The notes: a model not told the origin generated them from the sequence alone. A stretch of DNA of 64,000 bases from a virus (IMGVR_UViG_3300022602_000026); one strand, 5' to 3'; shown: positions 48,549 to 64,000, counted from the first letter of the stretch. Numbers and translations are program-made.

Positions 48549-48769
48549 GTATAGATGTAGACGTACTTGGCGAAGTATATACTATTTTAAAACAGTATAT
48601 CCCGGTAAAAGACAGACAAGAAGCTGCAGACAATTTAATGAGCGTGCTAGTAGATATGTTGAACGACATTGATCTGCAAGAGTTTGGTGGCACCGACAGT
48701 AATCTTAAAAAGGCACTTAAAGAGTATGTGGTTGACGAAGACGACAACTACAACGAAGAAGATGAATAA
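48545..48769 (+). CDS. Small acidic hypothetical protein
   Basis: ATGA overlap with uvsX; 74 aa. Confidence 0.7.
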   Translation: MSIDVDVLGEVYTILKQYIPVKDRQEAADNLMSVLVDMLNDIDLQEFGGTDSNLKKALKEYVVDEDDNYNEEDE

Positions 48770-50001
48770 TGCTACCCAATTATTTTCCGATTCAAACAGA
48801 AACTGCTTGTAAATTAAAATGGAGTTGGAGTACTATTTATTTAAATTCTGGAACAACTGCATCCTGTCATCGAGCTTCCAAAAGCGATATTGATACAGAT
48901 AATTTCCATAATTTTCATAATACGGAAACAAAATTACAAGCACGTGAGTTGATGTTTGACGGAAAATGGCCTGCGGGCGGTTGCGAGTACTGCCAAGGTA
49001 TAGAAAATTCTGGCGGTTTCAGTGACAGGATGTTGCATAATTCTATTCCGGGACTGCACCCCGGTTCATTGGACTCTACTACAGTAGATCCTGCGATATT
49101 AGAAGTATATTTTAATAACACCTGCAACTTGTCTTGTTTGTACTGCAAGCCAGAACTAAGTTCTAGTATAGATCAAGAAAATAATAAATTTGGTGTTTTT
49201 AACAAAAACGGAATAATTTTATCGCCCTTGAGCAAAAAGCATATTGGAGAACTAGAGCCAAAATTTTGGCAGTGGATGAAAGATAATTTTTCTAAACTTC
49301 AAAGATTTCATTTTTTAGGTGGCGAACCTTTTTATCAAAAACAATTAAACACATTGATTGATTTTATTCAAGACAATGCCAATCCCAATCTCGAACTTAA
49401 CCTTGTAACAAACCTCATGATTTCCCATGATACACTGGTTAAAAAAATTGATGAAATTAAACAATTAATTATTAAAAGAAAAATTAAAAGATTTGATTTA
49501 ACTGTCAGTATTGACTGTTGGGGCCCGGAACAAGAATATGTGCGTTACGGATTAGACTTAAACACTTGGTTAGAAAATTTTACATATCTATTGGATCAAA
49601 AATGGATTAAATTAAATATCAATCAAGCAATATCGGTACTAACAATTAAAACCATGCCAGAGTTAATTGTAAAATTAAATGAATGGAACTGTAAAAGGCC
49701 AGTGGGACATTTTTTCAGTGTCGTACAACCTGGTCCCAGTTACATGAGACCAAATATATTTGGCCCCGGAGTATTTGACAACGATTTCGAAAATATATTA
49801 AAATTAATGCCAAGCAACACCGCCGACGAACAACGAGCAGTTCATGCCATGTCCGGTATAGCAAACGAAATTAAATCAAACAACATCAACGCCGTTGAAA
49901 TTAATAAATTGTTTACATTCTTAAACGAAAAAGATCGCCGACGCCAAACCAATTGGCGCACAACCTTTCCATGGTTAACCGAGTACGAAAATGTGGTATA
50001 A
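48769..50001 (+). CDS. Radical SAM protein with N-terminal Cys-rich (twitch-like) domain
   Basis: CNLSCLYC, FLGGEPF; N-terminal C..W..SCH..CEYC. Confidence 0.88.
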   Translation: MLPNYFPIQTETACKLKWSWSTIYLNSGTTASCHRASKSDIDTDNFHNFHNTETKLQARELMFDGKWPAGGCEYCQGIENSGGFSDRMLHNSIPGLHPGSLDSTTVDPAILEVYFNNTCNLSCLYCKPELSSSIDQENNKFGVFNKNGIILSPLSKKHIGELEPKFWQWMKDNFSKLQRFHFLGGEPFYQKQLNTLIDFIQDNANPNLELNLVTNLMISHDTLVKKIDEIKQLIIKRKIKRFDLTVSIDCWGPEQEYVRYGLDLNTWLENFTYLLDQKWIKLNINQAISVLTIKTMPELIVKLNEWNCKRPVGHFFSVVQPGPSYMRPNIFGPGVFDNDFENILKLMPSNTADEQRAVHAMSGIANEIKSNNINAVEINKLFTFLNEKDRRRQTNWRTTFPWLTEYENVV

Positions 50002-53151: not shown

Positions 53152-53694
53152 ATGAAAACAATCGGCGATAAATTAACTCACTTTGCAGTAACCGGTGTCA
53201 AGCCCGGACAACCAGAAGATGCTTTCTTCACTATTGACGAAACAAGTTTTGCGGGCAAGTGGAAAGTAATTGTATTCTATCCCAAGGACTTTACATTTGT
53301 ATGCCCAACAGAAATTGTAGCATACGACAAACTAAATCAAGACTTTGCGGATCGTGATGCAGTATTGCTTACAGGTAGCACAGACAACGAATTCTGCAAA
53401 TTAGCATGGCAAAAATCACACGAAGACTTGATCAAGATCAAGCACAATCAGTTTGCTGATACACAACGTGGTGAATTAAGTCTTGCTGAACAGTTGGGTG
53501 TATTCTATGCTCCAGCCGGTGCTGCACTACGTGCCACATTCATTGTTGATCCCGACAACACAATCCAACACGTTACTGTCAACAACTTGGACGTGGGTCG
53601 TAGCCCAGAAGAAACATTGCGTATCCTTGATGCATTGCAAACTGGTGAATTGTGTGCATGTAACCGCACAGTTGGCGGAGCAACACTGGGATGA
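53152..53694 (+). CDS. ahpC: 2-Cys peroxiredoxin AhpC
   Basis: FYPKDFTFVCPTE (peroxidatic Cys), ALRATFIVDP, GELCACN; SD AAGGAG. Confidence 0.97.
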   Translation: MKTIGDKLTHFAVTGVKPGQPEDAFFTIDETSFAGKWKVIVFYPKDFTFVCPTEIVAYDKLNQDFADRDAVLLTGSTDNEFCKLAWQKSHEDLIKIKHNQFADTQRGELSLAEQLGVFYAPAGAALRATFIVDPDNTIQHVTVNNLDVGRSPEETLRILDALQTGELCACNRTVGGATLG

Positions 53695-54092
53695 TTGATT
53701 GCTTGATCATTGGCGACAGTATCGCAGTTGGCACAAAAATGTTCAGACCTGAATGTAGGGACTATGCCAAAGGCGGTATTACTAGTCATGGTTGGGACAA
53801 GCGATTTGGCATGAATGACTTGTCTGCTGAAACCGTTATTATCAGTTTAAGTACCAATGATTGGGAACAAGCAGACACTCACGCAAAACTGATTGAAATT
53901 CGTAACAAAGTCCGGGGCAAGCGAGTATTTTGGATTGAGCCCAATCCCGAAAGCAAACCCCGAGCAGTCGAGAATGTGAGATCAGTTGCTGAACAGTTTG
54001 GTGATGTAGTTATACCTACAACACGTTGGCAAGCAGACAAGATTCATCCAAGTTGGGCAGGATATAAACAAATAGCGGAGAAAACAAAATGA
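53691..54092 (+). CDS. Small SGNH-hydrolase-like protein
   Basis: IIGDSIAVG, ISLSTND, DKIHP; ATGA overlaps at both ends. Confidence 0.8.
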   Translation: MIDCLIIGDSIAVGTKMFRPECRDYAKGGITSHGWDKRFGMNDLSAETVIISLSTNDWEQADTHAKLIEIRNKVRGKRVFWIEPNPESKPRAVENVRSVAEQFGDVVIPTTRWQADKIHPSWAGYKQIAEKTK

Positions 54093-54595
54093 ATTTTATA
54101 GAATCAGTAAAAGGTGCTTTACCGGACTATGCAAAAGACACCAAGTTAAACATGGATGCGGTATTACTACGTAGTACCTTAGATGCAGATGTGGCTATAG
54201 GATGTGCAGTGGCTGCCTTGGCTGCAACTGGCAATGGTAAACTTTTAAGCGTACTACTAGCAGATGCTCCTGTTTATGCAGATGCAGCAATGACTGCAGC
54301 GTCAATCATGGCCCAAAACAATGTATGGTATCCCTACGTTGAAATGGCCGATGATCCTGCACTTGCCGGACTACCTGCAGGCTTACGCATGAACGCTATT
54401 GCCTCACATGGCGGAACAACCAAAAGCAATTTTGAAGCATTTAGTTTGGCTGCCTCAATTGTGGGCAAGTGTCACTTCTGTGTCAAGGCACATTATGAAA
54501 CACTGAAAAAAGAAGGCTATACTGTAGAGCAACTACGCGACATCGGACGTATTGCCTCAGTTATCAACAGTGCCGCAAAGGTGTTGAACAGTTAA
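54089..54595 (+). CDS. ahpD: Alkylhydroperoxidase AhpD
   Basis: LPDYAKDTKLN, MAQNNVWYPY, SIVGKCHFCVKAH (CxxC..H). Confidence 0.95.
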   Translation: MNFIESVKGALPDYAKDTKLNMDAVLLRSTLDADVAIGCAVAALAATGNGKLLSVLLADAPVYADAAMTAASIMAQNNVWYPYVEMADDPALAGLPAGLRMNAIASHGGTTKSNFEAFSLAASIVGKCHFCVKAHYETLKKEGYTVEQLRDIGRIASVINSAAKVLNS

Positions 54596-55497
54596 ACTCT
54601 AACCGCAGTTACTCGAGTATTACAAGCAACGGCTACAAACCTATCCTGTCCAAATGTGATGGCAGTCCAAGGTTGTGTAGCCGGCATCGCTTCGGTGTGC
54701 CAAGTTATGCCATCACTACTGACTGCTGCCACATTGCTGTTATGTGCAACCGATATAAAAGTACCATTCCCGTAAGCAATACTGGTCCATTGTTGTGCAC
54801 CGGGCAACGTAGAAGCAGTCCAAGTATGTCCATTTAGACTGTATGCAGCAACATTGCTATTGGCAGCAACTGCAACAAATCGATTATTGCCAAATGCCAA
54901 TCCAGTCCAATTTTGTGCCACGGGCATGGCATTACTGGTGACCCAACTTGCTCCAGTGGTACTGCTAGAACTACTGTTACTATTTGAAGTTATAGCAACA
55001 AATTGACCAAGACCATATGCTACCTCGGTCCAAGGCAAACTTATGTCCATCAAGCTATTGGCCCAATCATGTGGATCTGGGGTAACTCCCACAGTTTGAT
55101 TTCCGTAAGGGTAACCAAATTTTGTAGTAAATCCCGACCCTACTGCAACAAAGTAATCAGAACCGTAAGCAACACTCTGCCAATTTTTTGATTTTGGTAA
55201 GTTAACAAAAGTCCAATTGGCACCGTCAATGCTGATAGCCGAATACGCACCTGTAGCAACAGCAACAAACTTGCCGTTACCGTATGTGATATTTTGCCAA
55301 TACGCATTGACCGGCATTATACTGGTTAAGTATCTACTGGGACTAGAAGGTTGTGTAACTCCCGGAGTCCAAGTTATTCCGTCGGTACTGTACGAAGAGT
55401 TAGAGCTTATATTGGCAACAGTGGCAAATATACCGGCACCGTATGCGATTCCTGACCAAGCGTCGGGGGTGTTTATTGTTCCTGTGGTCCAGGTCAT
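54592..55497 (-). CDS. Beta-propeller-like repeat protein (WT..MP..W..IAYGNG.FVAV repeats)
   Basis: About seven 40-aa repeats; minus-strand TAAATA (TATTTA at 55514-55519) and SD AAGGA place the start at 55497. Confidence 0.8.
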   Translation of the reverse strand: MTWTTGTINTPDAWSGIAYGAGIFATVANISSNSSYSTDGITWTPGVTQPSSPSRYLTSIMPVNAYWQNITYGNGKFVAVATGAYSAISIDGANWTFVNLPKSKNWQSVAYGSDYFVAVGSGFTTKFGYPYGNQTVGVTPDPHDWANSLMDISLPWTEVAYGLGQFVAITSNSNSSSSSTTGASWVTSNAMPVAQNWTGLAFGNNRFVAVAANSNVAAYSLNGHTWTASTLPGAQQWTSIAYGNGTFISVAHNSNVAAVSSDGITWHTEAMPATQPWTAITFGQDRFVAVACNTRVTAVRV

Positions 55498-55550
55498 TTT
55501 GAGTCCTTTTGAGTATTTATTGTAAAAATACAACAATTTATCCAAAGAGC

Positions 55551-55579
55551 TTTACAACGAATCATAAATAAACTATAAT
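55551..55579 (+). promoter_or_regulatory. Sigma70-type promoter of the RNA island, with nested CATAAATA
   Basis: TTTACA (55551)-17-TATAAT (55574); CATAAATA 55563-55570. Confidence 0.8.
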
Positions 55580-55585
55580 ACGAAC

Positions 55586-55720
55586 ATGATGCAAAACATT
55601 ACGAAACATTCGCAACTACAACTGATAGCCAATTTAGGTGGGACAACCTATTGGTCACAGTTCGATGCAATGCCCGCATCAATTAATAGTGATCGTGAAC
55701 CAAGAGAGGGTTTAAGTTAA
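55586..55720 (+). CDS. 44-aa putative leader peptide (leaderless)
   Basis: ATG 6 nt after the -10 box, no SD; MMQNITKHSQLQLIANLGGTTYWSQFDAMPASINSDREPREGLS; stop lies on the antiterminator strand. Confidence 0.6.
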   Translation: MMQNITKHSQLQLIANLGGTTYWSQFDAMPASINSDREPREGLS

Positions 55721-55778
55721 CGTATAATATCAAATCATATTTTAACTTAAACCCTGGACTAAACACCCAGGGTTTTTT
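55707..55778 (+). promoter_or_regulatory. Attenuator-like antiterminator/terminator
   Basis: AGGGTTTAAGTTAA (55707-55720) pairs perfectly with TTAACTTAAACCCT (55742-55755), which overlaps terminator AAACCCTGG..CCAGGGTTTTTT (55749-55778). Confidence 0.75.
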
Positions 55779-55793
55779 AATGAGGAAAGAAAT

Positions 55794-55946
55794 ATGAGAA
55801 CAGAAAAGAAAAAGTTATTGGAGCAAGTGCCTGCTGTTCTTACACAGGAACAAAGGCTAGCTCTAATAGAAGCCAAGTTGGCAAGGGCCGAGCACTATGT
55901 GCAGGCTCTAGCCAAACAGGCAAAACGATTAGCTGAAAAACGCTGA
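55794..55946 (+). CDS. 50-aa helical basic protein (not in ORF track)
   Basis: SD GAGG; MRTEKKKLLEQVPAVLTQEQRLALIEAKLARAEHYVQALAKQAKRLAEKR. Confidence 0.7.
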   Translation: MRTEKKKLLEQVPAVLTQEQRLALIEAKLARAEHYVQALAKQAKRLAEKR

Positions 55947-56088
55947 TCAAAAGTGTTAAGGAAACGAGGTCCTAGCATCACTTTAAAAATGCAAACGGGC
56001 GGACAGGATACATGAATGGCATGGCGACAACTTGCCGAGTAAGACTCCTGGGTAGGGTATCAACCCTATCATATCCTCTACCAAGAGG

Positions 56089-56183
56089 GTATTCTAAAAC
56101 ACACCAGATGACAATTCCTGGGGGCAATGAGAGCCCACTAAGGCAGGCACGGATCCCGTGATAACTGGTGTGTTTTAGAATAC
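56089..56183 (+). ncRNA. Candidate ncRNA closed by a perfect 19-bp stem
   Basis: GTATTCTAAAACACACCAG / CTGGTGTGTTTTAGAATAC around a 57-nt GC-rich insert. Confidence 0.55.
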
Positions 56184-56277
56184 AACACCCAGACGAAAGA
56201 AGCCGATAGATTGATAAACTATGACGGGGCAGTTCGCAAGATAAGTGTTCCAACTGTGGTGTTGTGTTACTTACAAT

Positions 56278-56368
56278 GGAAGGCCAATCCAAATGGCGAT
56301 GGAACCGGTCTTGAAAACCGTCGAGCGTTAATAACGCCTTTAGAGTTCGACTCTCTAGCCTTCCGCCA
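56278..56368 (+). tRNA. tRNA-Ser(TGA)
   Basis: Cloverleaf, loop CTTGAAA, long variable arm, TTCGA, CCA. Confidence 0.95.
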
Positions 56369-56413
56369 AAATCTCACCGCTTCCGCCAATGTTGTATTTG
56401 TGCAACACCGCAG

Positions 56414-56658
56414 TTGTTCAGAAATGACAACTCAGTTATAATAGATACAAGTTAAGCAATTAACTGAAGTTAAGCAATTAACAAGTGTTGTATAACAACA
56501 ACATCAAATTTGCAAAGAAATGATGTCTAAGTTATAATAGATACATGTTAAGAAATTAACTAAGTTTAATTGATTAGCAAGTGTGTAGTGTAAATGCAAC
56601 ATCAAATTTGCAAAGAAATGATAAAGCAGTTACAATACATATATGTTAAGAAATTAAC
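56414..56658 (+). promoter_or_regulatory. Three tandem sigma70 promoters, each followed by a GTTAA-N4-TTAAC palindrome
   Basis: TTGTTC-17-TATAAT (56414), TTGCAA-17-TATAAT (56510), TTGCAA-17-TACAAT (56608); palindromes at 56451, 56469, 56547, 56645. Confidence 0.75.
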
Positions 56659-56735
56659 AGTAACAAATGATTGAGTTAGTTACAGAGTTCATTAAAAAAT
56701 TATTTAGGTAGTGCTAGTTTTGCTTGGCAACAAGC

Positions 56736-56995
56736 ACTACTTTAAAACACATTTGAGGTTACCTACACCGTTAGGTTCTCTAGGAGAGGAGCAAGGGTGC
56801 CGACTCACGCAATCCTAGGGCAACATGAAACAGAGCAGTAATGCTTGGCGATAGCGGCGGACAGGTAGGCAGTAATGACGAACTGAAGTCTGTGCAGACG
56901 GTGCACCGGGATGTTATCGAGCGTAAACCCTTATTAGGTAACGAACGGGTTGTGAGACGACAGAGGGGAGTTCCTCAAGTGTTTTTTAAAGTAGT
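56736..56995 (+). ncRNA. Candidate 260-nt multibranch ncRNA
   Basis: 23-bp near-perfect closing stem; internal CTCTAGGA/TCCTAGGG, CCTAC/GTAGG, AACCC/GGGTT helices and a GAGCA-GTAA-TGCTT GNRA hairpin. Confidence 0.6.
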
Positions 56996-57066
56996 TGAAA
57001 CTCTAGATTAAATCCACTGGTAATAAAGAGAGAAGTGAGTGGTACTCTCCAACTACTAACAATTTT

Positions 57067-57144
57067 GGTCTCATAGTATAGTTGGCCTAATATGCCTGCC
57101 TGTCACGCAGGAGATCACGGGTTCGAATCCCGTTGAGACCGCCA
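57067..57144 (+). tRNA. tRNA-Asp(GTC)
   Basis: CCTGC-CTGTCAC-GCAGG, TTCGAAT, CCA. Confidence 0.95.
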
Positions 57145-57214
57145 AAGTTTTCTGGCATTTTAACAAGGCGAGCCGTCAATGCAGAGTCTAGTTAAATGTA
57201 AGTCCAATCTAATT

Positions 57215-57290
57215 GCATCGTTCTTCTAGAGGCCAAGGAAAACCGCCTTTCACGCGGTCAACACCGGTTCGAATCCGGTACGATGTACCA
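57215..57290 (+). tRNA. tRNA-Glu(TTC)
   Basis: ACCGC-CTTTCAC-GCGGT, TTCGAAT, CCA. Confidence 0.95.
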
Positions 57291-57296
57291 AAATTT

Positions 57297-57385
57297 GGGG
57301 GCTAATCCACACGGGAGACTGTAAATCTCTTGCCATAATATGTGTGGTGGCTGGCAGTTAGGTTCGATTCCTTTAGTCCCCACCA
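57297..57385 (+). tRNA. tRNA-Tyr(GTA)-like, lacking a D-arm
   Basis: GGGGGCT/AGTCCCC acceptor, GGAGA-CTGTAAA-TCTCT, TTCGATT, CCA; only 10 nt between acceptor and anticodon stems. Confidence 0.75.
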
Positions 57386-57396
57386 TTTGTAGTTGT

Positions 57397-57550
57397 TATT
57401 GATAAGTGTTTGAGATGAACATGGGGTATCGTGGACTGATCATCCGCTATGCGGGCCTAACTGGCGTGGAACAGGTCCTGACATAACCCGCCATACGCTG
57501 TTGCCGGAAACGATCCGACGCATAAATTGGCACTCAAGCACTTTTCAATA
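57397..57550 (+). ncRNA. Candidate ncRNA closed by an 18-bp stem ending flush with tRNA-Arg
   Basis: TATTGATAAGTGTTTGAG / CTCAAGCACTTTTCAATA; internal GGGCCT/AGGTCC and ATGG/CCAT helices. Confidence 0.55.
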
Positions 57551-57625
57551 GTCGCTATAGTATAATGGATAATACGCCGTGCTACGAACGCGGTGATTGT
57601 GGTTCGATTCCATATAGCGGCACCA
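57551..57625 (+). tRNA. tRNA-Arg(ACG)
   Basis: CCGTG-CTACGAA-CGCGG, CCA. Confidence 0.95.
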
Positions 57626-57631
57626 AACAAT

Positions 57632-57706
57632 GGAGTTGTTAGTTTAGTGGTAAAACCGCGGGTTGTGATTCCGCTATCACGAGTTCGATTCTCGTACTTC
57701 TCCCCA
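57632..57706 (+). tRNA. tRNA-His(GTG)
   Basis: GCGGG-TTGTGAT-TCCGC; encoded G-1:C73; CCA. Confidence 0.92.
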
Positions 57707-57720
57707 GTGTAAAAGTTTTT

Positions 57721-57796
57721 GGGGGTATAGCTCATTTGGTAGAGCAGGACCTTTGCAAGGTCAAGGCGGCGGGTTCGAATCCTGTTACCTCCACCA
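57721..57796 (+). tRNA. tRNA-Ala(TGC)
   Basis: Loop TTTGCAA, G3:U70, CCA. Confidence 0.95.
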
Positions 57797-57802
57797 GAAT
57801 AC

Positions 57803-57894
57803 GGAGACTTGGATGAGTGGTTTAAATCGGCACCCTGCTAAGGTGTTGTATATAGTAATATGTACCGAGAGTTCGAATCTCTCAGTCTCCGCCA
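57803..57894 (+). tRNA. tRNA-Ser(GCT)
   Basis: GCACC-CTGCTAA-GGTGT, long variable arm, CCA. Confidence 0.95.
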
Positions 57895-57897
57895 AAT

Positions 57898-57926
57898 TTG
57901 ACAGTAAATGATGTTACTGTTACAAT
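57898..57926 (+). promoter_or_regulatory. Internal sigma70-type promoter
   Basis: TTGACA-17-TACAAT, ending 11 nt before tRNA-Gln. Confidence 0.8.
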
Positions 57927-57937
57927 AAGAAATCAGT

Positions 57938-58011
57938 TGGGGATTAGTTAAATGGTATAACAGTGGATTTTGATTCCATCGTCGAAAGTTCGATTCTTTC
58001 ATCCCCTGCCA
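57938..58011 (+). tRNA. tRNA-Gln(TTG)
   Basis: GTGGA-TTTTGAT-TCCAT, G73, CCA. Confidence 0.93.
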
Positions 58012-58158
58012 AAGTTTGTTAGTTATTAAAAAGGAAGTTAACATGAAAGACACTGCTAAACACTAGTGTCAATCTTGATCCCGTATTGGTCAGGGTTGGC
58101 ACATTAAAGAACTCTTTAATATAGTATTAAGACATTAAAGAAACTTTTAATACACCAA

Positions 58159-58234
58159 CCCTCTGTGGCGCAATTGGTAGCGCAACGGACTCTTAATCCG
58201 CTGGTTGGCAGTTCAAATCTGCCCGGGGGGACCA
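58159..58234 (+). tRNA. tRNA-Lys(CTT)
   Basis: Loop CTCTTAA, CCA. Confidence 0.95.
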
Positions 58235-58237
58235 TAT

Positions 58238-58313
58238 GGGACGTTAGCTCAGTAGGTAGAGCAAGAAACTTTTAATTTCGAGGTCATGTGTTCGAATCAC
58301 ATACGTCCTACCA
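58238..58313 (+). tRNA. tRNA-Lys(TTT)
   Basis: Loop CTTTTAA; its CCA forms the start of the first array stem. Confidence 0.95.
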
Positions 58314-58925
58314 TATAAAAACACATTAAGTAAGTCCCGGGCAAGATTCGTTTAATAGGCATTAGTGTGTTTCTATATGGTAAGTAATGATACAAGAGGG
58401 AGTAATTACCCTTCAAGTATGACCTAGAAGCGAGTGGACGAACGTGACTGTGGGCCACTAAGGTAGTCAACATTACAATCCATATAAAAACACATTCTTG
58501 TGGGTAAGTGACTTGGTTAACGCCGATATCGACCGCCCGTTTGTAGTGTGTTTCTATATGGTAAGGGCAAGGTGTGCTGTTGGTATCTGGCTTAGACCTC
58601 CGGACTGTCACTAGAATCATTACCGCTCTACTGCTTGGTCGGCAGTACCATATAAAAACACATTAGAGTAGCGACTATTGCTGGAGGCGGTAACACGTAA
58701 TTAGTGTGTTTTTATATGGTATATCAGTTTTTAGTAAGTCATACACGGGACTGCTACCTACGGGATAGATATCGAGGCTCGGAATCTCGGATACTAATTA
58801 CAGACTCAATGACGGATGCATACGGCATTGTTGATACGCCATATAAAAACACATTATCTAACCTGTAGTGCGGTCACAGGACATCGTAAGGTGTGGTAGC
58901 CGTGTTAGTGTGTTTCTATATGGTA
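58311..58925 (+). repeat. Array of four inverted-repeat stems with unique loops and unique spacers
   Basis: Left arm CCATATAAAAACACATT at 58311, 58480, 58648, 58839; right arm TAGTGTGTTTYTATATGGTA at 58363, 58544, 58702, 58906. Confidence 0.95.
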
Positions 58926-58997
58926 ATATAGCATAGTGGCTAATGCAGTTGCTTCATACGCAACCTATCGTTGGTTCGAGTCCAACTATTACCACCA
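58922..58997 (+). tRNA. tRNA(CAT), elongator Met or Ile2
   Basis: GTTGC-TTCATAC-GCAAC, G1:C72 paired (not initiator), CCA. Confidence 0.9.
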
Positions 58998-58999
58998 AG

Positions 59000-59168
59000 T
59001 TTCGGGATAGACGGCGCGATTGAGTCCCTTGACGGTCTTAGTGCTACAGGCTGTAGCATGACACACCAGTAGACCATAAGGTAGCATAAACTCTTGCGTT
59101 CGAGACAAAGACTAATCTTCTACACCGGGAAGTGGCGGTGTAGTCCTCTCTAGATCAGTTTCCCGAAA
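59000..59168 (+). ncRNA. Candidate 170-nt ncRNA
   Basis: TTTCGGGA/TCCCGAAA closing stem; TGCTACA/TGTAGCA, CTACACCG/CGGTGTAG and GGTCT/AGACC helices. Confidence 0.55.
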
Positions 59169-59309
59169 ATCTTTATGTTGCGGGGGTTGTGCGTCTGGCA
59201 CAAACTCCGCTGGAAGACACGTAAACATCTTTTGTTTATAAGGTCGATTTGAGTGTACTTTGTACAACATTTGAAATTCTGTGTAGATGTCTTCCATACA
59301 GTATTTATA

Positions 59310-59386
59310 GCCCCGATAGCTCAGTTGGTAGTAGCACCGTCTTGATAAGGCGTAGGTCCCTGGTTCGAGTCCAGGTCGAGGCACCA
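59310..59386 (+). tRNA. tRNA-Ile(GAT)
   Basis: Loop TTGATAA, TTCGAGT, CCA. Confidence 0.93.
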
Positions 59387-59400
59387 AATTAAAAATTTAT

Positions 59401-59483
59401 TCCACGGGAGCCGCCGGGTGTGGCAGCGGACTGTTAATCCGTGTCGAAAGACTAGCTAGGTTCGAGCCCTAGCCGTGGAGCCA
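59401..59483 (+). tRNA. tRNA-Asn(GTT) with long variable arm
   Basis: GCGGA-CTGTTAA-TCCGT; variable arm GTC-GAAA-GAC; CCA. Confidence 0.9.
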
Positions 59484-59498
59484 ATCATAAATAACTAT

Positions 59499-60104
59499 AT
59501 GTATAATTGTATAGTTTGTGAAAAATCTTTTGTCAGCATTATGTCCTTAACCGGTCATAAAAGAATGCACGGTCAATCTAATGGCAAATCTAAAAAGATA
59601 TTGTGTTCGTGTTTAATTACACGTAAGGTAATGCCGCATCAATATTTAGAAAAATATCAAGACAGTTTAATGGGTTGTAAGCAATGTAAAAAATTGTTTA
59701 AACCAACTGCACAAAGAACTACTTTTTGCTCTCAATCTTGTTCGGCAACATATAACAATACAGTTTACATAAAACGTAAGAAAAAAGAAAAACTGCCAAA
59801 GATTATTAGAGAGAAAAAAGTTTACTCAGAAGCCGAGAAAAAGGCTGCAAATGTTTCAGCAGTACAAGCCTACAGAGCTCGAAAATATAGTGCGACACTA
59901 CCAGATACAAATCGCAAACTTATTAATGAGATTTACAAAATGTGCCCAAAAGGTTATGAAGTAGATCATATTATTGCGTTAAGCGAAGGTGGTCCGCACC
60001 ATCAAGACAATTTACAGTATCTTCCTGCTATAGAAAATAGACGGAAGAACCGAACACAAAATTACGACAAAAGTCTTGCTATCAAATGGCAAGATGTGTT
60101 ATAA
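59499..60104 (+). CDS. C2H2/CxxC zinc-finger HNH endonuclease (homing-type)
   Basis: CIVC..H..MH finger, FCSQSC, EVDHIIALSEGG.HHQDNLQYL; TAAATA 59488-59493. Confidence 0.88.
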   Translation: MYNCIVCEKSFVSIMSLTGHKRMHGQSNGKSKKILCSCLITRKVMPHQYLEKYQDSLMGCKQCKKLFKPTAQRTTFCSQSCSATYNNTVYIKRKKKEKLPKIIREKKVYSEAEKKAANVSAVQAYRARKYSATLPDTNRKLINEIYKMCPKGYEVDHIIALSEGGPHHQDNLQYLPAIENRRKNRTQNYDKSLAIKWQDVL

Positions 60105-60200
60105 TAAAAACAAATACAAGTCAGTTCCCGGATGACTCGAAAAATGCGGGCTGCTCAATCGCCAACGGAGCGAGCGTAAGGTAACAGTTGGACAAATTTC

Positions 60201-60285
60201 GCCCCTTTGCGCCGAATGGGATGGCAACGGATTTGTAATCCGTCTTCGTAAGATAGAGAGTGTTCGATTCACTCAGGGGGCACCA
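60201..60285 (+). tRNA. tRNA-Thr(TGT) with long variable region
   Basis: ACGGA-TTTGTAA-TCCGT; 14-nt variable region; CCA. Confidence 0.9.
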
Positions 60286-60292
60286 AACAACA

Positions 60293-60541
60293 ATGTGGAC
60301 ATACTTAGAAACTTTTTTATTAGTATTTGCAACCGACATACTTTATATCTATTATGTTAAAGCCGTAACAGATCATAAAATATGGCGTGCAACCTTTTGG
60401 AGTATGGTAGTTACATTTACTGCTAGTATAGCAGTGATCAACTACACCGAGAACCATTGGACACTGATATCAAGTTTACTGGGTGCCGGAGCCGGCACTT
60501 ATATAGGTATGCGATTCATTAAAAAGAATAACGGAGTATAG
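60293..60541 (+). CDS. Small membrane protein
   Basis: Three hydrophobic segments ending LLGAGAGTYIG; start taken after tRNA-Thr; stop lies inside tRNA-Pro. Confidence 0.75.
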   Translation: MWTYLETFLLVFATDILYIYYVKAVTDHKIWRATFWSMVVTFTASIAVINYTENHWTLISSLLGAGAGTYIGMRFIKKNNGV

Positions 60542-60609
60542 CGCAGTCTGGCTAGCGCATCTGCTTTGGGAGCAGAGGGTCCAAGGTTCGAATCCTTGTA
60601 CTCCGACCA
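60532..60609 (+). tRNA. tRNA-Pro(TGG)
   Basis: TCTGC-TTTGGGA-GCAGA, CCA. Confidence 0.95.
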
Positions 60610-60621
60610 ATTAAATATAGT

Positions 60622-61692
60622 ATGAAAAGAATAGTTTGGCCATTAAAGATTTATGGTGACAAAGATTTATCGGGCAAAATTTGCACGATCCCTTTTAATA
60701 CTGTAGCAATATCAATTGAAGGTGATGTTCGTATATGTATGTGTACTGATTGGATGCTATCCACAGTTGGCAACATTTATGAAAATTCCTTACAAGATAT
60801 TTTAGTTAATGCAAGATCCACAACAATAAGACAATCTATTGTTGATGGTAATTTTAGATACTGTGACGAAACCAGATGCGGAGTATTGCTTAATTCAGAC
60901 ACAGGATTAATTACAGTAACGCAAGAAGATCAATTATTAAAAAATTTACTTGATCCTGCAAATTTTACAATACCATCTGAGATATGGATAAGTGGTGACA
61001 TGACCTGTAACCTTTCTTGTCCATCTTGTAGAAAAAGCATAATTCGAGAAACAGAAGCACAACAACGACAAAATCAAGAGCTATTAGATAATTTAGTTCA
61101 ACATATTTTTCCTGGCTCCAGCGATAAAGAAATTACCTTGTACATGAGCGCAACTGCTGAAGTATTTGCTAGTTCACTGTTACTGGGTTTGTTGGAAAAA
61201 TTGCCCATTGATCGATACCCTAACATTAGATTAAGTCTACAAACAAACGGGTTATTGGCCGAACGTAGATGGTCTAGGATCCAACATTTAGAAAAGAATA
61301 TACATCGTATCACAGTTACCATAGATAGTTGTACCAAACAAAACTATGAACTATTGAGACGAGGTGGTAAATTTGAAGATATGGAAAGTAGCTTAGAGTT
61401 TTTTTCAAAGAAAAAACGCGAGCTAGGGTTTCAGTATTATATTAGATCAGTAACGCAACAAACAAATTGCAACGAGATCGAACAATTTTATGATTATTGC
61501 AAACAACACGACGCTGATCGAGTTGAATACTGTAAGTTGGCCAATTGGGGAACTTTCACCGAGCAAGAATTTTTAGCACACGATGTGCTTGATAACGCAC
61601 ACCAACAGTACCAATCAACAATTGATACTTTTAATCGACTCAAAGAAAAATACAACGATGTATTTTTTATAGGCTTCGCAAGTATGGCGTAA
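60622..61692 (+). CDS. Radical SAM protein with N-terminal Cys-rich (SPASM/twitch-like) domain
   Basis: CNLSCPSC; CTIPF..GDVRICMC..CDETRC; stop lies inside tRNA-Leu. Confidence 0.88.
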   Translation: MKRIVWPLKIYGDKDLSGKICTIPFNTVAISIEGDVRICMCTDWMLSTVGNIYENSLQDILVNARSTTIRQSIVDGNFRYCDETRCGVLLNSDTGLITVTQEDQLLKNLLDPANFTIPSEIWISGDMTCNLSCPSCRKSIIRETEAQQRQNQELLDNLVQHIFPGSSDKEITLYMSATAEVFASSLLLGLLEKLPIDRYPNIRLSLQTNGLLAERRWSRIQHLEKNIHRITVTIDSCTKQNYELLRRGGKFEDMESSLEFFSKKKRELGFQYYIRSVTQQTNCNEIEQFYDYCKQHDADRVEYCKLANWGTFTEQEFLAHDVLDNAHQQYQSTIDTFNRLKEKYNDVFFIGFASMA

Positions 61693-61763
61693 TCGGTAGC
61701 CGCAGCAGACTTAAAATCTGCCGAGTTTGACTCGTCCCGGTTCGATTCCGGGTACTTGCACCA
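61678..61763 (+). tRNA. tRNA-Leu(TAA)
   Basis: GCAGA-CTTAAAA-TCTGC, long variable arm, CCA. Confidence 0.95.
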
Positions 61764-61765
61764 AC

Positions 61766-61842
61766 ACCACTGTAGTCTAACTGAATAAGGCACCGCTCTT
61801 CTAAAGCGTACGATGTGAGTTTGAATCTCGCCAGTGGTACCA
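61766..61842 (+). tRNA. tRNA-Arg(TCT)
   Basis: Loop CTTCTAA, ACCACTG/CAGTGGT acceptor, CCA. Confidence 0.92.
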
Positions 61843-61884
61843 TTTATCATAAATACTTCTATGTAAAGACTAGGAGTAGAAGTA

Positions 61885-62586
61885 ATGGATTATAAGAAAA
61901 TATACGAAAATTTAATAGATCGTGCTAGAGATCGATGTTTAATAGATGGTGAATATTATGAATCGCACCACATTGTTCCTAGATGTTTAGGTGGTAATGA
62001 TAGTATTGATAATTTAGTAAATCTAACAGCTAGAGAACATTTTATAGCACATTTATGCCTAGTTAAGAATAATCCGGGTAATCATAAACTTGTGAAAGCG
62101 GCCGTTATGATGACTGTTAGTGGCACAGTTCATAATAGAATAGGGAATAGAGTTTATGAATGGTTAAGAAAAAAGCATTCAGTTGCAATGAGTATTTCAC
62201 AATCCGGAAAAGGTAATAGCCAATTTGGATCTGTCTGGGTATTTAACGATATCTTAAAAGAAAATAAAAAAGTTAAAAAATCTGAATTATCTACGTTTAT
62301 TGCCGCCGGGTGGCATGAAGGAAGAGTTTATGATTTTGATAGCGTATATCAAAATTGTGCAGTTTGTGGAAAAGACTTCAGAAACCATTTTAAGAAAAAG
62401 ACTTGCAGTTACACATGTCAAGAAATCTTAAAAGGCAAATTTAAAAGTTTTGAAGGCAAAGAAGAAGAATTAAAAATGCATTATGCAAATACTAAGAGTA
62501 TGAATAAAGCATTAAAGGCAATGGGATATCCTGGAGCAGTTAGCCATTATTATCAATGGGCTAAACGTATCCTAAAGCAAACATAA
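61885..62586 (+). CDS. HNH homing endonuclease
   Basis: YESHHIVPRCLGG..NLVNLTAREHFIAH; TAAATA 61850-61855, SD AGGAG. Confidence 0.92.
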   Translation: MDYKKIYENLIDRARDRCLIDGEYYESHHIVPRCLGGNDSIDNLVNLTAREHFIAHLCLVKNNPGNHKLVKAAVMMTVSGTVHNRIGNRVYEWLRKKHSVAMSISQSGKGNSQFGSVWVFNDILKENKKVKKSELSTFIAAGWHEGRVYDFDSVYQNCAVCGKDFRNHFKKKTCSYTCQEILKGKFKSFEGKEEELKMHYANTKSMNKALKAMGYPGAVSHYYQWAKRILKQT

Positions 62587-62589
62587 TTT

Positions 62590-62664
62590 GCGACTATAGC
62601 ATAGCGGTAGTGCCGCGAACTCATAATTCGTACGGGGGTGGTTCGAATCCACCTGGTCGCACCA
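62590..62664 (+). tRNA. tRNA(CAT), elongator Met or Ile2
   Basis: GCGAA-CTCATAA-TTCGT, G1:C72 paired, CCA. Confidence 0.9.
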
Positions 62665-62669
62665 AATTT

Positions 62670-62745
62670 GCAACTTTAGCTGATGTGGTCATAGCGGTGG
62701 CGTGAAGAGCCATTGAACTAGGTTCGATTCCTAGAGGTTGCACCA
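62670..62745 (+). tRNA. tRNA-Phe(GAA)
   Basis: GTGGC-GTGAAGA-GCCAT, CCA. Confidence 0.92.
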
Positions 62746-62749
62746 AATC

Positions 62750-62827
62750 GCCCCCGTGGACAAATTGGCAAAGTCATTTCTCTCAAAAGGAAAAGTTTTC
62801 TCCGTTCGACTCGGAGCGGGGGTACCA
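62750..62827 (+). tRNA. tRNA-Leu(CAA) with short variable loop
   Basis: TTTCT-CTCAAAA-GGAAA; variable region only about 6 nt; CCA. Confidence 0.9.
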
Positions 62828-62829
62828 AG

Positions 62830-62903
62830 GCTCTTGTAGTTAAGTGGCATAACACAGTCTTGGTAAGACTGAATAGAAAGTTCGATTCTTTCCTAGAGCA
62901 CCA
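62830..62903 (+). tRNA. tRNA-Thr(GGT)
   Basis: CAGTC-TTGGTAA-GACTG, CCA. Confidence 0.95.
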
Positions 62904-62904
62904 G

Positions 62905-62933
62905 TTGACAAATAAATAGAATGATAGTATAAT
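62905..62933 (+). promoter_or_regulatory. Consensus sigma70 promoter
   Basis: TTGACA-17-TATAAT, ending 10 nt before tRNA-Gly. Confidence 0.9.
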
Positions 62934-62943
62934 AGATACTAAT

Positions 62944-63017
62944 GCGGGATTAGTTTAATGGTAAAACAGAACCTTGCCAAGGTTCGGACAGGAGTTCGAT
63001 TCTCCTATCCCGCTCCA
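62944..63017 (+). tRNA. tRNA-Gly(GCC)
   Basis: GAACC-TTGCCAA-GGTTC, U73, CCA. Confidence 0.95.
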
Positions 63018-63024
63018 AGAGTTC

Positions 63025-63098
63025 GCCTCGGTAGTTTAATGGTAGAACGGCATCCTTACACGGTGCATACGGGAGTTCGATTCTCCAACGAGGTACCA
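63025..63098 (+). tRNA. tRNA-Val(TAC)
   Basis: GCATC-CTTACAC-GGTGC, CCA. Confidence 0.95.
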
Positions 63099-63106
63099 AG
63101 AAAGAT

Positions 63107-63180
63107 GGGTCATTAGTATAATGGTAGTACAAGAGTCTCCAAAACTTTTAGCGGTGGTTCGATTCCATCATGACTCGCCA
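63107..63180 (+). tRNA. tRNA-Trp(CCA)
   Basis: AGAGT-CTCCAAA-ACTTT, CCA. Confidence 0.95.
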
Positions 63181-63186
63181 AACAAT

Positions 63187-63264
63187 GTAAGGGTGGCAGA
63201 GTGGCCCAATGCAACGGATTGCAAATCCGTAAAACCGTCGGTTCAAATCCGACCCCTTACTCCA
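63187..63264 (+). tRNA. tRNA-Cys(GCA)
   Basis: ACGGA-TTGCAAA-TCCGT, U73, CCA. Confidence 0.95.
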
Positions 63265-63271
63265 ACAATTT

Positions 63272-64000
63272 ATGCACAATAGATCATTTAGACCCGAACA
63301 AGAAAAAAAATTGCGGGAAAATATTGGTCCCAGCGGAGTTGTAGAAAACTTTTTAACCCATGATGAATTCGAGTTGTGTAGAAAACTACATGCCGAAAAC
63401 ATAGACAAAATAAAAATGGGATTTGTGTTTAGGCAAGCAGCATTTGATTGGGAGTCCGAATACGGGGCCATGTTTAAATGGATACAGCCCAAGATTGATG
63501 CAATAGTTCCTGCTGAATGGGAATTGGATTTTATTGCTTTGCAGGATACTCCGGATCCTTGGAGGATACATATTGATCTTGCCTGGAACGCAGACAAGTT
63601 GCCGTATAAGGTATTGCTAGTTCCAGTAGATGTACTACCTGAATCAGGACCAGTAGATCCCGTCAATTGGCCTGCGGTTTACACAATAATTTTTAATCAA
63701 AGAAACTTTTTATCAAATTGCAAGCCGTTGCCTCCGGGGGCTAGTTGGATACGATCCATTGATGATCCCAGTGTTGAAAATCTTGAAACAGGGTTTTGTA
63801 TAACTAGAGAATTTTGGCAACAGTATCTAACACATGTCGACTATGAAGCTTTAGAAGGATTAACAGTAGAAACTTTGCTTCCTTGGAAACCAAAGTCTGT
63901 ATTGTATTGGGATACTTCGGTATTGCACATAGCAGACAATTTTGTCAAGAATAAAGTTAAAACAAAGAAGTCAGTGATATTTTTTATACGACATAAACTA
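63272..64000 (+). CDS. Partial ORF, putative 2OG-Fe(II) oxygenase-like protein (runs off window)
   Basis: Open frame from ATG 63272 to the window end (243 codons, read manually); WRIHID (HxD) and WDTSVLH distal His. Confidence 0.6.
   Translation, partial: MHNRSFRPEQEKKLRENIGPSGVVENFLTHDEFELCRKLHAENIDKIKMGFVFRQAAFDWESEYGAMFKWIQPKIDAIVPAEWELDFIALQDTPDPWRIHIDLAWNADKLPYKVLLVPVDVLPESGPVDPVNWPAVYTIIFNQRNFLSNCKPLPPGASWIRSIDDPSVENLETGFCITREFWQQYLTHVDYEALEGLTVETLLPWKPKSVLYWDTSVLHIADNFVKNKVKTKKSVIFFIRHKL

What the first reader, a model, noticed from the sequence alone, without database searches (positions are those of the whole stretch)
55551..55778. Leader-peptide attenuator gating the tRNA/ncRNA island
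Seen: TTTACA-17-TATAAT, then an ATG at the expected +1 (leaderless) opening 44 codons. The last 14 nt of the ORF, including the stop, pair perfectly with 55742-55755, which overlaps the 5' arm of a U-tailed terminator (55749-55778). Established: this is the geometry of ribosome-mediated attenuation (trp/his/pyr type). Inference: a ribosome reaching the stop masks the antiterminator strand and termination occurs, while a stalled or absent ribosome gives read-through. The peptide has 18 of 20 amino acids and no run of one residue, so it would sense general translation failure (for example host anticodon nucleases or starvation) rather than one amino acid.
Basis: partly seen in the sequence, partly recalled or inferred. 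Interest (0 to 1): 0.85.

Follow-up and report, generated by a model that had tools for sequence, protein, structure and literature searches.

The report
Leaderless mini-gene attenuator in phage
At the head of the tRNA/small-RNA region of an uncultured freshwater jumbo phage, a short gene without a ribosome-binding site ends inside an RNA hairpin that competes with a transcription stop signal. The stop signal should therefore work mainly when ribosomes finish the mini-gene; this known kind of bacterial switch is here in an unusual, non-amino-acid-specific phage form, and it is predicted, not yet shown.

Summary
Observation confirmed: every coordinate is exact, and the arrangement recurs in 17 distinct variants from related freshwater phage contigs.

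All 17 variants share these features:
- A sigma-70 promoter matching 10-12 of 12 consensus positions, with a 17-bp spacer.
- An ATG 6-10 nt after the -10 hexamer and no Shine-Dalgarno sequence.
- An open frame of 39-45 codons whose TAA forms the last 3 nt of a 14-bp helix (H1).
- A U-tailed terminator (T) that shares 7-9 nt with H1's 3' arm.

Comparative evidence:
- H1, T and a hairpin inside the ORF (P2) all show compensatory changes.
- The shared strand stays complementary to both of its partners in every variant.
- The ORF looks translated. Ten of 12 indels are multiples of three, and the other two cancel each other.
- Folding gives H1 by default, and T once a ribosome footprint is placed on the stop codon.

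Best reading (about 0.5): a ribosome-mediated attenuator. Completed translation leads to termination; stalled or absent translation leads to read-through.

- The cargo is a conserved ORF50-family gene, a conserved RNA and tRNA-Ser(UGA). The main tRNA block has its own promoters.
- No codon bias ties the leader to the tRNAs.
- The signal that is sensed is untested.

This scan has noted codon-barcoded leader attenuators before tRNA genes in other phages; this leader is not barcoded.

The parts
55551..55579 (+). Sigma-70-type promoter: TTTACA, 17-nt spacer, TATAAT
   Evidence: It matches 11 of 12 consensus positions. Both hexamers and the 17-bp spacer are kept in all 17 variants (10-12 of 12), while the spacer sequence and the flanks vary.
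55586..55720 (+). Leaderless 44-codon ORF (ATGATG start, TAA stop), here called ORF44
   Evidence: The ATG lies 6 nt after the -10 hexamer and there is no Shine-Dalgarno sequence. The frame is open for 39-45 codons in all 17 variants. In a column-shuffle test on 10 variants, all frames stayed open in only 5 of 5000 shuffles. Ten of 12 ORF indels are multiples of 3 and the other two compensate, against 1 of 7 in the non-coding 3' part. pN/pS is 0.48, with depressed pS. Gene callers predicted it in 25 protein clusters.
55628..55655 (+). P2: a conserved 9-bp hairpin inside the ORF (codons 15-24); role unknown, possibly an RNA polymerase pause hairpin
   Evidence: RNAalifold on 17 sequences finds 3 pairs with changes on both sides. 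In L056 the inner stem is replaced by a longer, different one.
55707..55720 (+). Arm A: the 5' arm of the antiterminator helix H1; its last three bases are the stop codon
   Evidence: It is perfectly complementary to 55742-55755. In 17 variants, 13-14 of the 14 positions pair. Positions 1, 6, 7, 8 and 10 show compensatory double changes.
55721..55741 (+). H1 apical part: a 21-nt loop region with an inner 4-bp stem (55722-55725 with 55737-55740)
   Evidence: The inner stem is kept through G-U to A-U and U-A to U-G changes. Length varies from 18 to 22 nt, and the indels here are not multiples of 3.
55742..55755 (+). Arm B: the 3' arm of H1; its last 7 nt are also the start of the terminator's 5' arm (the shared strand)
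   Evidence: At every shared position the base can pair with both its arm A partner and its terminator 3'-arm partner in all 17 variants. Position 14, for example, reads A:T:A, G:C:G or G:T:A.
55749..55778 (+). Intrinsic terminator T: 9-bp stem (6 G-C-rich core pairs plus 3 A-U), 9-nt loop, U tract
   Evidence: The stem occurs in at least four compensatory versions, and T alone folds at -12.4 to -20.1 kcal/mol. The gap from the stop codon to the hairpin is 28 nt here and 23-29 nt in relatives.
55782..55946 (+). First cargo: a Shine-Dalgarno sequence (GAGGA) and ORF50, a basic coiled-coil-like 50-aa protein of no known family
   Evidence: ORF50 starts 15 nt after the U tract and has no promoter-like site of its own. 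Its pN/pS is 0.24. A family member directly follows the switch in nearly all variants.
56064..56368 (+). Further cargo without a promoter of its own: a highly conserved RNA-like region (56064-56273) and tRNA-Ser(UGA) (56278-56368)
   Evidence: Column identity is 0.93 across relatives. A perfect 19-bp inverted repeat lies at 56089-56107 and 56165-56183. The tRNA was found. tRNA-Ser(UGA) follows the unit at the same distance in the close relatives.

Best explanation
This is a ribosome-mediated (leader-ORF) transcription attenuator at the head of a phage transcription unit.

Proposed mechanism:
1. Host sigma-70 RNA polymerase starts at, or within 3 nt of, the ATG, so the mRNA is leaderless.
2. 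If a 70S ribosome loads and translates all 44 codons, it sits on the TAA, which is the top of arm A. It then covers arm A but not arm B, which starts 22 nt downstream.
3. Arm B is then free to pair with the terminator's 3' arm, and transcription stops at about 55776-55778.
4. If no ribosome loads, or it stalls anywhere before about codon 36, arm A pairs with arm B as soon as arm B emerges. This 14+4 bp helix is H1.
5. Forming the terminator then needs strand displacement with no net energy gain. The polymerase reads on into ORF50, the conserved RNA region and tRNA-Ser(UGA), and adds to transcription of the tRNA block.

Shown here: the sequence anatomy, its conservation, covariation of both helices, the coding signature of the ORF, and the thermodynamic switch.

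Inferred: the transcription start, leaderless translation, transcription-translation coupling, actual termination, and what physiological state is sensed.
For: - Anatomy is exact.
- The unit is conserved in 17 distinct variants whose peptides are down to about 50% identical. Each has the promoter with a 17-bp spacer and an ATG 6-10 nt after the -10 hexamer. In each, the stop codon is the last 3 nt of arm A, although ORF length varies from 39 to 45 codons.
- H1 has 5 positions with compensatory double changes.
- The terminator stem exists in several compensatory versions.
- The shared strand remains complementary to both partners everywhere, including G:C:G triplets in 5 variants.
- The ORF is selected. 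All frames stayed open in 5 of 5000 column shuffles. Indel lengths are 10 of 12 in-frame inside the ORF against 1 of 7 outside it. In L056 a -13/+7 pair of indels restores the frame.
- The 5'-terminal 21 nt are unpaired in the consensus fold.
- Energetics: H1 folds at -18.6 to -20.9 kcal/mol. With H1 present, forming T is energy-neutral (-18.5 against -17.4 to -18.2), compared with -13 when arm A is unavailable. A ribosome mask at the stop codon gives the full terminator in the 10 closely related variants tested.
- The 28-nt gap between stop codon and hairpin matches a distance at which a ribosome at a stop codon did not repress a terminator in E. coli: about 90% termination at 28 bp against under 10% at 5 bp (PMC4824070).
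- No promoter-like site lies between the terminator and ORF50 or tRNA-Ser, so these conserved genes need read-through.
Against: - There are no experimental data. The transcription start, translation and termination are all unverified.
- There is no run of regulatory codons. Leader codons are not enriched for those read by the phage tRNAs (38 of 44 against an 83% background, p=0.35). UCR codons are not enriched either (p=0.055).
- The C-terminal half of the peptide (W..F...SDREPG.GLS) is conserved with synonymous changes, and pN/pS is about 0.5 even in unpaired codons. The peptide may have a function of its own.
- Leaderless initiation is inefficient in many Gram-negative hosts, and the host is unknown.
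- The branch-migration landscape between H1 and T is flat, so some termination could occur without a ribosome.
- The role of the conserved hairpin P2 is unexplained.
Confidence: 0.5

Rival explanations
1. ORF44 is an ordinary small-protein gene. Its peptide is the functional product, perhaps a partner of ORF50 or a substrate of the radical SAM enzymes nearby. H1 plus T would then be its 3'-end structure, giving a fixed, unregulated ratio of short to read-through transcripts.
For: - The C-terminal half of the peptide is conserved with synonymous changes, and pN is as low as in ORF50.
- In some diverged relatives a radical SAM/SPASM gene follows within 0.3-0.5 kb. One of these is 41% identical to the window's gene at 60622-61692.
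- No regulatory codons are present.
Against: - It does not explain why the shared strand stays complementary to both arm A and the terminator 3' arm through compensatory changes.
- It does not explain why the stop codon is always the last triplet of arm A.
- If the ORF is translated, the ribosome must open H1, so termination would depend on translation anyway.
- The N-terminal third of the peptide is not conserved and is read in another frame in L056.
- The peptide has no Cys in most variants and matches nothing in Pfam, NCBIfam or the Atlas.
- Radical SAM adjacency is not constant: the gene lies 5 kb away in the window.
Confidence: 0.25
2. The roughly 193-nt terminated transcript is itself the product. 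It would be a stable structured small RNA, possibly dual-function, whose hairpins P2, P3 and H1/T act in trans or bind a factor.
For: - Nucleotide conservation is 0.86-0.91, above ORF50 and close to the neighbouring RNA modules.
- Synonymous divergence is depressed: pS is 0.23 against 0.50 in ORF50.
- P2 and H1 covary.
- The block AAACATTCGCAA is kept although it is read in another frame in L056.
- The region lies in an island rich in small RNA modules.
Against: - The frame is kept open in all 17 variants and the indels are in-frame, so translation is selected.
- No Rfam family matches.
- A plain small RNA needs no competing helix on its own terminator.
- Attenuator-derived small RNAs are known, so this reading can coexist with attenuation (PMC6614838, abstract seen).
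Confidence: 0.1
3. H1 is a processing or protein-binding site. It could be an RNase III-type cleavage site (about 20 bp of near-continuous helix). Alternatively it could be the target of a phage protein, such as the basic ORF50 product, that sets termination in an autoregulatory loop.
For: - repeat finder reads H1 as 22-nt arms that are 86% complementary.
- ORF50 is small, basic, helical and always adjacent.
Against: - Only 14+4 bp are conserved; the apical part varies in length and pairing.
- Nothing ties ORF50 to RNA binding, and it has no family match.
- It does not explain the conserved ORF or the position of its stop codon.
Confidence: 0.08

Closest known systems
Leader-peptide attenuators of amino-acid operons (E. 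coli trpL, hisL, pheL, leuL, thrL, ilv leaders; textbook knowledge; PMC1183508 abstract)
   Same: - A promoter-proximal short ORF.
- An antiterminator and an intrinsic terminator that share one strand.
- A ribosome that reaches the stop codon masks the antiterminator's 5' strand, so the terminator forms.
- A ribosome stalled upstream allows read-through.
   Different: - No run of cognate codons, and 18 of 20 amino acids are used.
- No segment 1 or anti-antiterminator, so an untranslated leader should read through rather than super-attenuate.
- No Shine-Dalgarno sequence (leaderless).
- A longer ORF (39-45 codons) with a partly conserved peptide.
- Encoded by a phage.
- The cargo is a small protein, RNA modules and a tRNA, not biosynthetic enzymes.
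Ribosome-stalling attenuators that sense translation inhibitors (for example the Bacillus vmlR and Listeria lmo0919 leaders found by Term-seq; recalled from memory, not checked here)
   Same: A leader ORF reports the general state of translation rather than one amino acid. Stalling gives read-through of an intrinsic terminator.
   Different: Those leaders are very short, start from a Shine-Dalgarno sequence and control resistance genes in Firmicutes. No stalling motif is known here.
pyrBI attenuator of E. coli (44-codon leader; from memory)
   Same: The leader length is similar. The outcome depends on how closely the ribosome follows the polymerase, not on one amino acid.
   Different: In pyrBI the ORF runs through the terminator and the ribosome blocks the terminator hairpin directly, so translation gives read-through. 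Here the stop codon lies 28 nt before the hairpin and the sign is reversed.
Leaderless polycysteine short ORFs of mycobacteria (bioRxiv 10.1101/834739)
   Same: A leaderless short ORF, as the first cistron, controls downstream genes through an RNA structure that the ribosome opens or blocks.
   Different: - Those act on translation by sequestering the ribosome-binding site, not on an intrinsic terminator.
- They carry a Cys codon run.
- They are found in Actinobacteria, where leaderless mRNAs are common.
Codon-barcoded leader attenuators before phage tRNA operons noted earlier in this scan (AI notes, unpublished)
   Same: A short, often leaderless ORF plus a terminator/antiterminator pair sits in front of phage tRNA genes.
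   Different: Those leaders are written in the codons read by the downstream tRNAs. This one is not, and its first cargo is a protein gene.

Membership tests
Ribosome-mediated (leader-peptide) transcription attenuator | An intrinsic terminator lies between a promoter and the regulated genes, with no promoter in between | tested here: met
   The terminator is at 55749-55778. ORF50 starts 15 nt later. The next promoter-like site on the + strand is at 56509. The terminator stem is kept by compensatory changes.
Ribosome-mediated (leader-peptide) transcription attenuator | An alternative antiterminator helix is mutually exclusive with the terminator | tested here: met
   The two helices share 7-9 nt in all 17 variants, and the shared bases pair with both partners. 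Local minimum-free-energy folds form H1, not T.
Ribosome-mediated (leader-peptide) transcription attenuator | A short translated ORF positions the ribosome so that it decides which helix forms | tested here: inconclusive
   The ORF is conserved, shows a coding signature, and its stop codon lies inside arm A. A ribosome mask switches the predicted fold. Translation itself cannot be tested with these tools, and no RNA holder was listed.
Ribosome-mediated (leader-peptide) transcription attenuator | A run of regulatory codons cognate to the controlled pathway | tested here: not met
   No residue run is present and 18 of 20 amino acids are used. UCR codons give p=0.055. Codons readable by the phage tRNAs are 38 of 44 against an 83% background, p=0.35.
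Ribosome-mediated (leader-peptide) transcription attenuator | An upstream segment 1 / pause hairpin that pairs with the antiterminator strand (anti-antiterminator) | tested here: not met
   A conserved hairpin P2 exists at 55628-55655, but it does not pair with arm A in any consensus fold. Its pause function cannot be tested.
Leaderless mRNA | Transcription starts at, or within a few nt of, the start codon, and there is no Shine-Dalgarno sequence | tested here: inconclusive
   The ATG lies 6-10 nt after the -10 hexamer in all 17 variants, with no room for a Shine-Dalgarno sequence. The geometry matches lambda PRM-cI as I recall it. The 5' end has not been mapped.
pyrBI-type attenuator | The leader ORF extends through the terminator, so the ribosome blocks the terminator hairpin | tested here: not met
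   The stop codon lies 23-29 nt upstream of the hairpin.
T-box or other curated cis-regulatory RNA (Rfam) | A match to a curated covariance model | tested here: not met
   cmscan with E up to 1 over 54500-64000 gives only tRNAs and chance hits, and nothing at 55551-55778.
RiPP precursor peptide next to a radical SAM/SPASM maturase | Constant adjacency to the maturase, and a recognisable precursor family or modifiable core | tested here: inconclusive
   A radical SAM gene follows in L054 and L056, but it lies 5 kb away in the window and is absent from the fetched DNA of several loci. The peptide has no family match. The enzymes belong to the N-terminal twitch radical SAM subfamily, whose function is unknown.

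The most novel reading that the evidence does not exclude
The phage carries a general translation-capacity sensor. A leaderless 'test ORF' with no codon specificity lets host RNA polymerase pass into a small basic protein gene, structured RNAs and tRNA genes only when ribosomes fail to load on the leader or fail to finish it. Such failure could occur early in infection, under tRNA depletion or cleavage by host defences, or when leaderless initiation is disfavoured. The conserved C-terminal peptide and the P2 hairpin would tune ribosome dwell time and polymerase pausing.
Probability: 0.2. Interest if true: 0.8.

Novelty: new variant of a known kind. Interest (0 to 1): 0.6.

Why it matters
Leader-ORF attenuation is a textbook bacterial mechanism tied to amino-acid supply. 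In the full-text searches made here I found no description of a phage-encoded version that is leaderless, lacks regulatory codons and sits in front of a small protein, RNA modules and tRNA genes.

If real, it would show three things:
- Large phages measure the host's translation state in cis to time or dose an accessory translation module.
- There is a compact natural switch in which translation turns transcription off. It is driven by a consensus sigma-70 promoter, so it could be tested directly in E. coli.
- It supplies a case for studying leaderless initiation coupled to transcription.

The comparative data set of 17 variants with compensatory changes in both helices makes the prediction unusually concrete.

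Tried and rejected
- GenBank phage DNA search with the 900-nt region: no match.
- The window's own genome is not held. The nearest record, G001, is identical across the unit.
- Relatives found through the upstream 302-aa gene (L006, L007) have other genes next to it, so that synteny was of no use.
- The 16-mer from the downstream RNA module gave three chance hits with no homology (L050, L051, L053).
- The metagenome scan with the ORF50 alignment mostly re-found the same contigs.
- RNA evidence: no RNA holder was listed in either search.
- Pfam, NCBIfam and the protein Atlas gave nothing for ORF44 or ORF50.
- Codon tests were negative. UCR enrichment before tRNA-Ser(UGA) gave p=0.055. Leader codons matching the phage tRNA set gave p=0.35.
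- Leaderless-type promoter geometry is not enriched elsewhere in the window (10 hits among 40 promoter-like sites against about 5 expected; my estimate).
- TATAAT in the H1 loop (55723-55728) is rejected as an internal promoter: it has no -35 hexamer and is not conserved.
- A consensus pause signal after P2 is not conserved (read by eye).
- The P1 pairing (55607-55614 with 55666-55672) appeared with 10 sequences but was dropped by RNAalifold with 17.
- A minus-strand terminator role is rejected: the reverse strand has no T run, and there are no minus-strand genes downstream.
- The count of structure pairs was not run, to avoid typing a long structure string. Pair counts come from fold_alignment and my own scripts.

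Full report
**Context.** The window comes from an uncultured freshwater jumbo phage.
- CheckV rates a 120-kb relative contig as 34% complete.
- The DNA holders are lake and freshwater metagenomes.
- Tail sheath and terminase genes are present.
- The nearest cultured terminase is that of Pseudomonas phage PA5oct, at 53% identity.
- From 56278 onward the window carries 25 tRNA genes on the + strand.

- TTTACA at 55551-55556, a 17-nt spacer and TATAAT at 55574-55579 form a promoter matching 11 of 12 consensus positions.
- Six nt later, ATGATG opens a 44-codon frame (55586-55720). There is no room for a Shine-Dalgarno sequence.
- The last 14 nt of the frame, arm A (55707-55720, including TAA), are perfectly complementary to arm B (55742-55755).
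- After one mismatch the helix H1 continues for 4 more pairs.
- Arm B's last 7 nt are also the start of the 5' arm of a terminator, T. T has arms at 55749-55757 and 55767-55775, a 9-nt loop, and a T run to 55778.
- The simple terminator scan missed T only because of its 9-nt loop.

**Relatives.**
- I collected relatives by four routes: the downstream ORF50 protein, two DNA patterns, the peptide, and then a peptide profile.
- DNA was fetched for 17 distinct variants. Their peptides are down to about 50% identical to the window's.
- All come from freshwater phage contigs.
- The genes upstream of the unit differ among them. The unit is therefore a module in its own right.

**Promoter and start.** All 17 variants have a -35/-10 pair matching 10-12 of 12 consensus positions, with a 17-bp spacer. 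An ATG follows 6-10 nt after the -10 hexamer. Where the spacing is 6-7 nt the start is a doubled ATGATG, so every variant has an ATG 9-10 nt after the -10. This is the geometry of a leaderless or near-leaderless mRNA, like lambda PRM-cI as I recall it. The consensus fold leaves the first 21 nt unpaired.

**The ORF is selected.**
- It is open in all 17 variants (39-45 codons), while the other five frames carry 1-7 stop codons each.
- Column shuffles of the 10-sequence alignment left all ten frames open in only 5 of 5000 trials.
- Inside the ORF, 10 of 12 indel events are multiples of three. The two exceptions (-13 and +7, both in L056) cancel each other. In the non-coding 3' part, only 1 of 7 internal indels is a multiple of three.

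**Evolution of the ORF is unusual.**
- Variable columns are spread evenly over the three codon positions (18/14/17), against 19/12/33 in ORF50.
- Synonymous divergence is halved: pS is 0.23 against 0.50, with similar pN. RNA-level constraint therefore overlies the coding constraint.
- The N-terminal third of the peptide is not conserved. In L056 a 10-nt deletion puts the conserved nucleotide block AAACATTCGCAA into another frame.
- The C-terminal half (W..F, then SDREPG.GLS) is conserved with synonymous changes. pN/pS is about 0.5 even in unpaired codons.

**The two helices.**
- H1 pairs at 13-14 of 14 positions in all variants. Positions 1, 6, 7, 8 and 10 show compensatory double changes.
- The terminator stem exists in several compensatory versions.
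- Every base of the shared strand can pair with both its arm A partner and its terminator 3'-arm partner in every variant. When the last shared base is C, both partners are G, which occurs in five variants.
- The stop codon is always the last triplet of arm A, although ORF length varies.
- The gap from the stop codon to the terminator is 23-29 nt.
- A further hairpin inside the ORF, P2 (55628-55655), also covaries. In L056 its inner stem is replaced by a longer one. Its role is unexplained; a polymerase pause hairpin is only a guess.

**Energetics.**
- H1 folds at -18.6 to -20.9 kcal/mol, and T alone at -12.4 to -20.1.
- In local folds H1 wins in the 10 closely related variants tested.
- The branch-migration path from H1 to T is flat (-18.5 against -17.4 to -18.2 kcal/mol). 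With arm A available, forming T yields no net energy, compared with about -13 when arm A is unavailable.
- Masking a ribosome footprint (-15 to +14 nt) around the stop codon gives the full terminator in the same 10 variants.
- In E. coli, a terminator placed 28 bp after a stop codon worked at about 90%, and one placed 5 bp after it at under 10% (PMC4824070). Here the gap is 28 nt. A terminating ribosome should therefore open H1 without blocking T.

**What is gated.**
- ORF50 has a strong Shine-Dalgarno sequence and starts 15 nt after the U tract. An ORF50-family gene follows the switch in nearly all variants.
- No promoter-like site lies between 55579 and 56509.
- ORF50, the highly conserved RNA-like region at 56064-56273 and tRNA-Ser(UGA) therefore depend on read-through.
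'Gating the island' is therefore an overstatement.

**Mechanism.**
- If the ORF is translated, which the indel evidence makes likely, a ribosome reaching the stop codon must unwind arm A. Termination then depends on translation.
Completed translation gives termination. A ribosome stalled before about codon 36, or no ribosome at all, gives read-through.
- This is the 2:3 / 3:4 logic of the trp attenuator, but without segment 1, without regulatory codons and without a Shine-Dalgarno sequence.
- I put this reading at about 0.5.
- What it senses is open. Leader codons are not enriched for those read by the phage tRNAs or by the adjacent tRNA-Ser. This differs from the codon-barcoded leaders that this scan noted in other phages.

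**Rivals.**
- A functional small protein or radical-SAM substrate with an ordinary leaky terminator (0.25). A radical SAM gene follows the unit in some relatives.
- A stable, possibly dual-function small RNA (0.1).
- A processing or protein-binding hairpin (0.08).
- None of these explains why one strand is kept complementary to two partners, with the stop codon fixed in the first of them.

**Literature.** Full-text searches found no description of a leader-ORF attenuator in front of phage tRNA or accessory genes. The nearest published relatives in kind are the amino-acid operon attenuators and the leaderless polycysteine short ORFs of mycobacteria.

**Verdict.** This is a real, conserved RNA switch with a translated leaderless ORF. 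It is best read as a new variant of ribosome-mediated attenuation.

Noticed in passing
window 55523-55549; L012, L013, L019, L021 and L039 upstream of the -35 hexamer: A conserved block (ACAACAATTTATCCAAA) lies just upstream of the -35 hexamer. In several relatives it is the right arm of a perfect 13-bp palindrome (GGATAAATTGTTG ... CAACAATTTATCC). Its half-site TTATCCAAA differs by one base from the DnaA box as I recall it. It could be an operator or an UP-like element. It is absent in L014 and L018.
   Followed up: no
window 56064-56273: The stretch between ORF50 and tRNA-Ser(UGA) is the most conserved part of the unit (0.93 column identity). It holds a perfect 19-bp inverted repeat (56089-56107 with 56165-56183). 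It is probably a structured RNA with no Rfam match.
   Followed up: partly
window 55794-55946 and relatives: ORF50 occurs in two C-terminal forms (46 and 50 aa). Their distribution does not follow the leader variants, for example L029 against L033, which have the same leader. This suggests recombination within the module. More distant relatives carry 55-70 aa members of the same coiled-coil family.
   Followed up: partly
window 48769-50001 and 60622-61692; L054 1866-2562; L056 1693-2526: The window has two N-terminal twitch-domain radical SAM genes, one of them inside the tRNA island. In diverged relatives a homologue lies directly after the leader/ORF50 module. Their function is unknown.
   Followed up: partly
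window 53152-54595: Just upstream of the divergent gene lies a peroxiredoxin (AhpC/TSA), a GDSL-like hydrolase and an AhpD-like CMD-family gene. This looks like an oxidative-stress accessory set that is unusual for a phage.
   Followed up: no
window 54592-55500 (-): The divergent 302-aa protein is built of repeated W..(I/V)(A/T)YG.G.FVAV units and looks propeller-like (weak EPTP hit). In L006 and L007 other genes separate it from the leader module.
   Followed up: no
window 59475-60104 and 61885-62586: HNH endonuclease genes lie inside the tRNA island. They are likely homing elements.
   Followed up: no
window 44521 and 24742: Two more promoter-like sites have a start codon 6-7 nt after the -10 hexamer: TTGACT-17-TACAAT-6-GTG opening a 350-aa ORF, and TTGACT-17-TATAAT-7-ATG opening an 84-aa ORF. 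They may be further leaderless genes, but the count is not above chance.
   Followed up: partly
window 56440-56660: The promoters after tRNA-Ser are each followed by GTTAA-GNRA-TTAAC. As RNA these would be small tetraloop hairpins at transcript 5' ends. The same GTTAA/TTAAC stem forms the top of H1.
   Followed up: no
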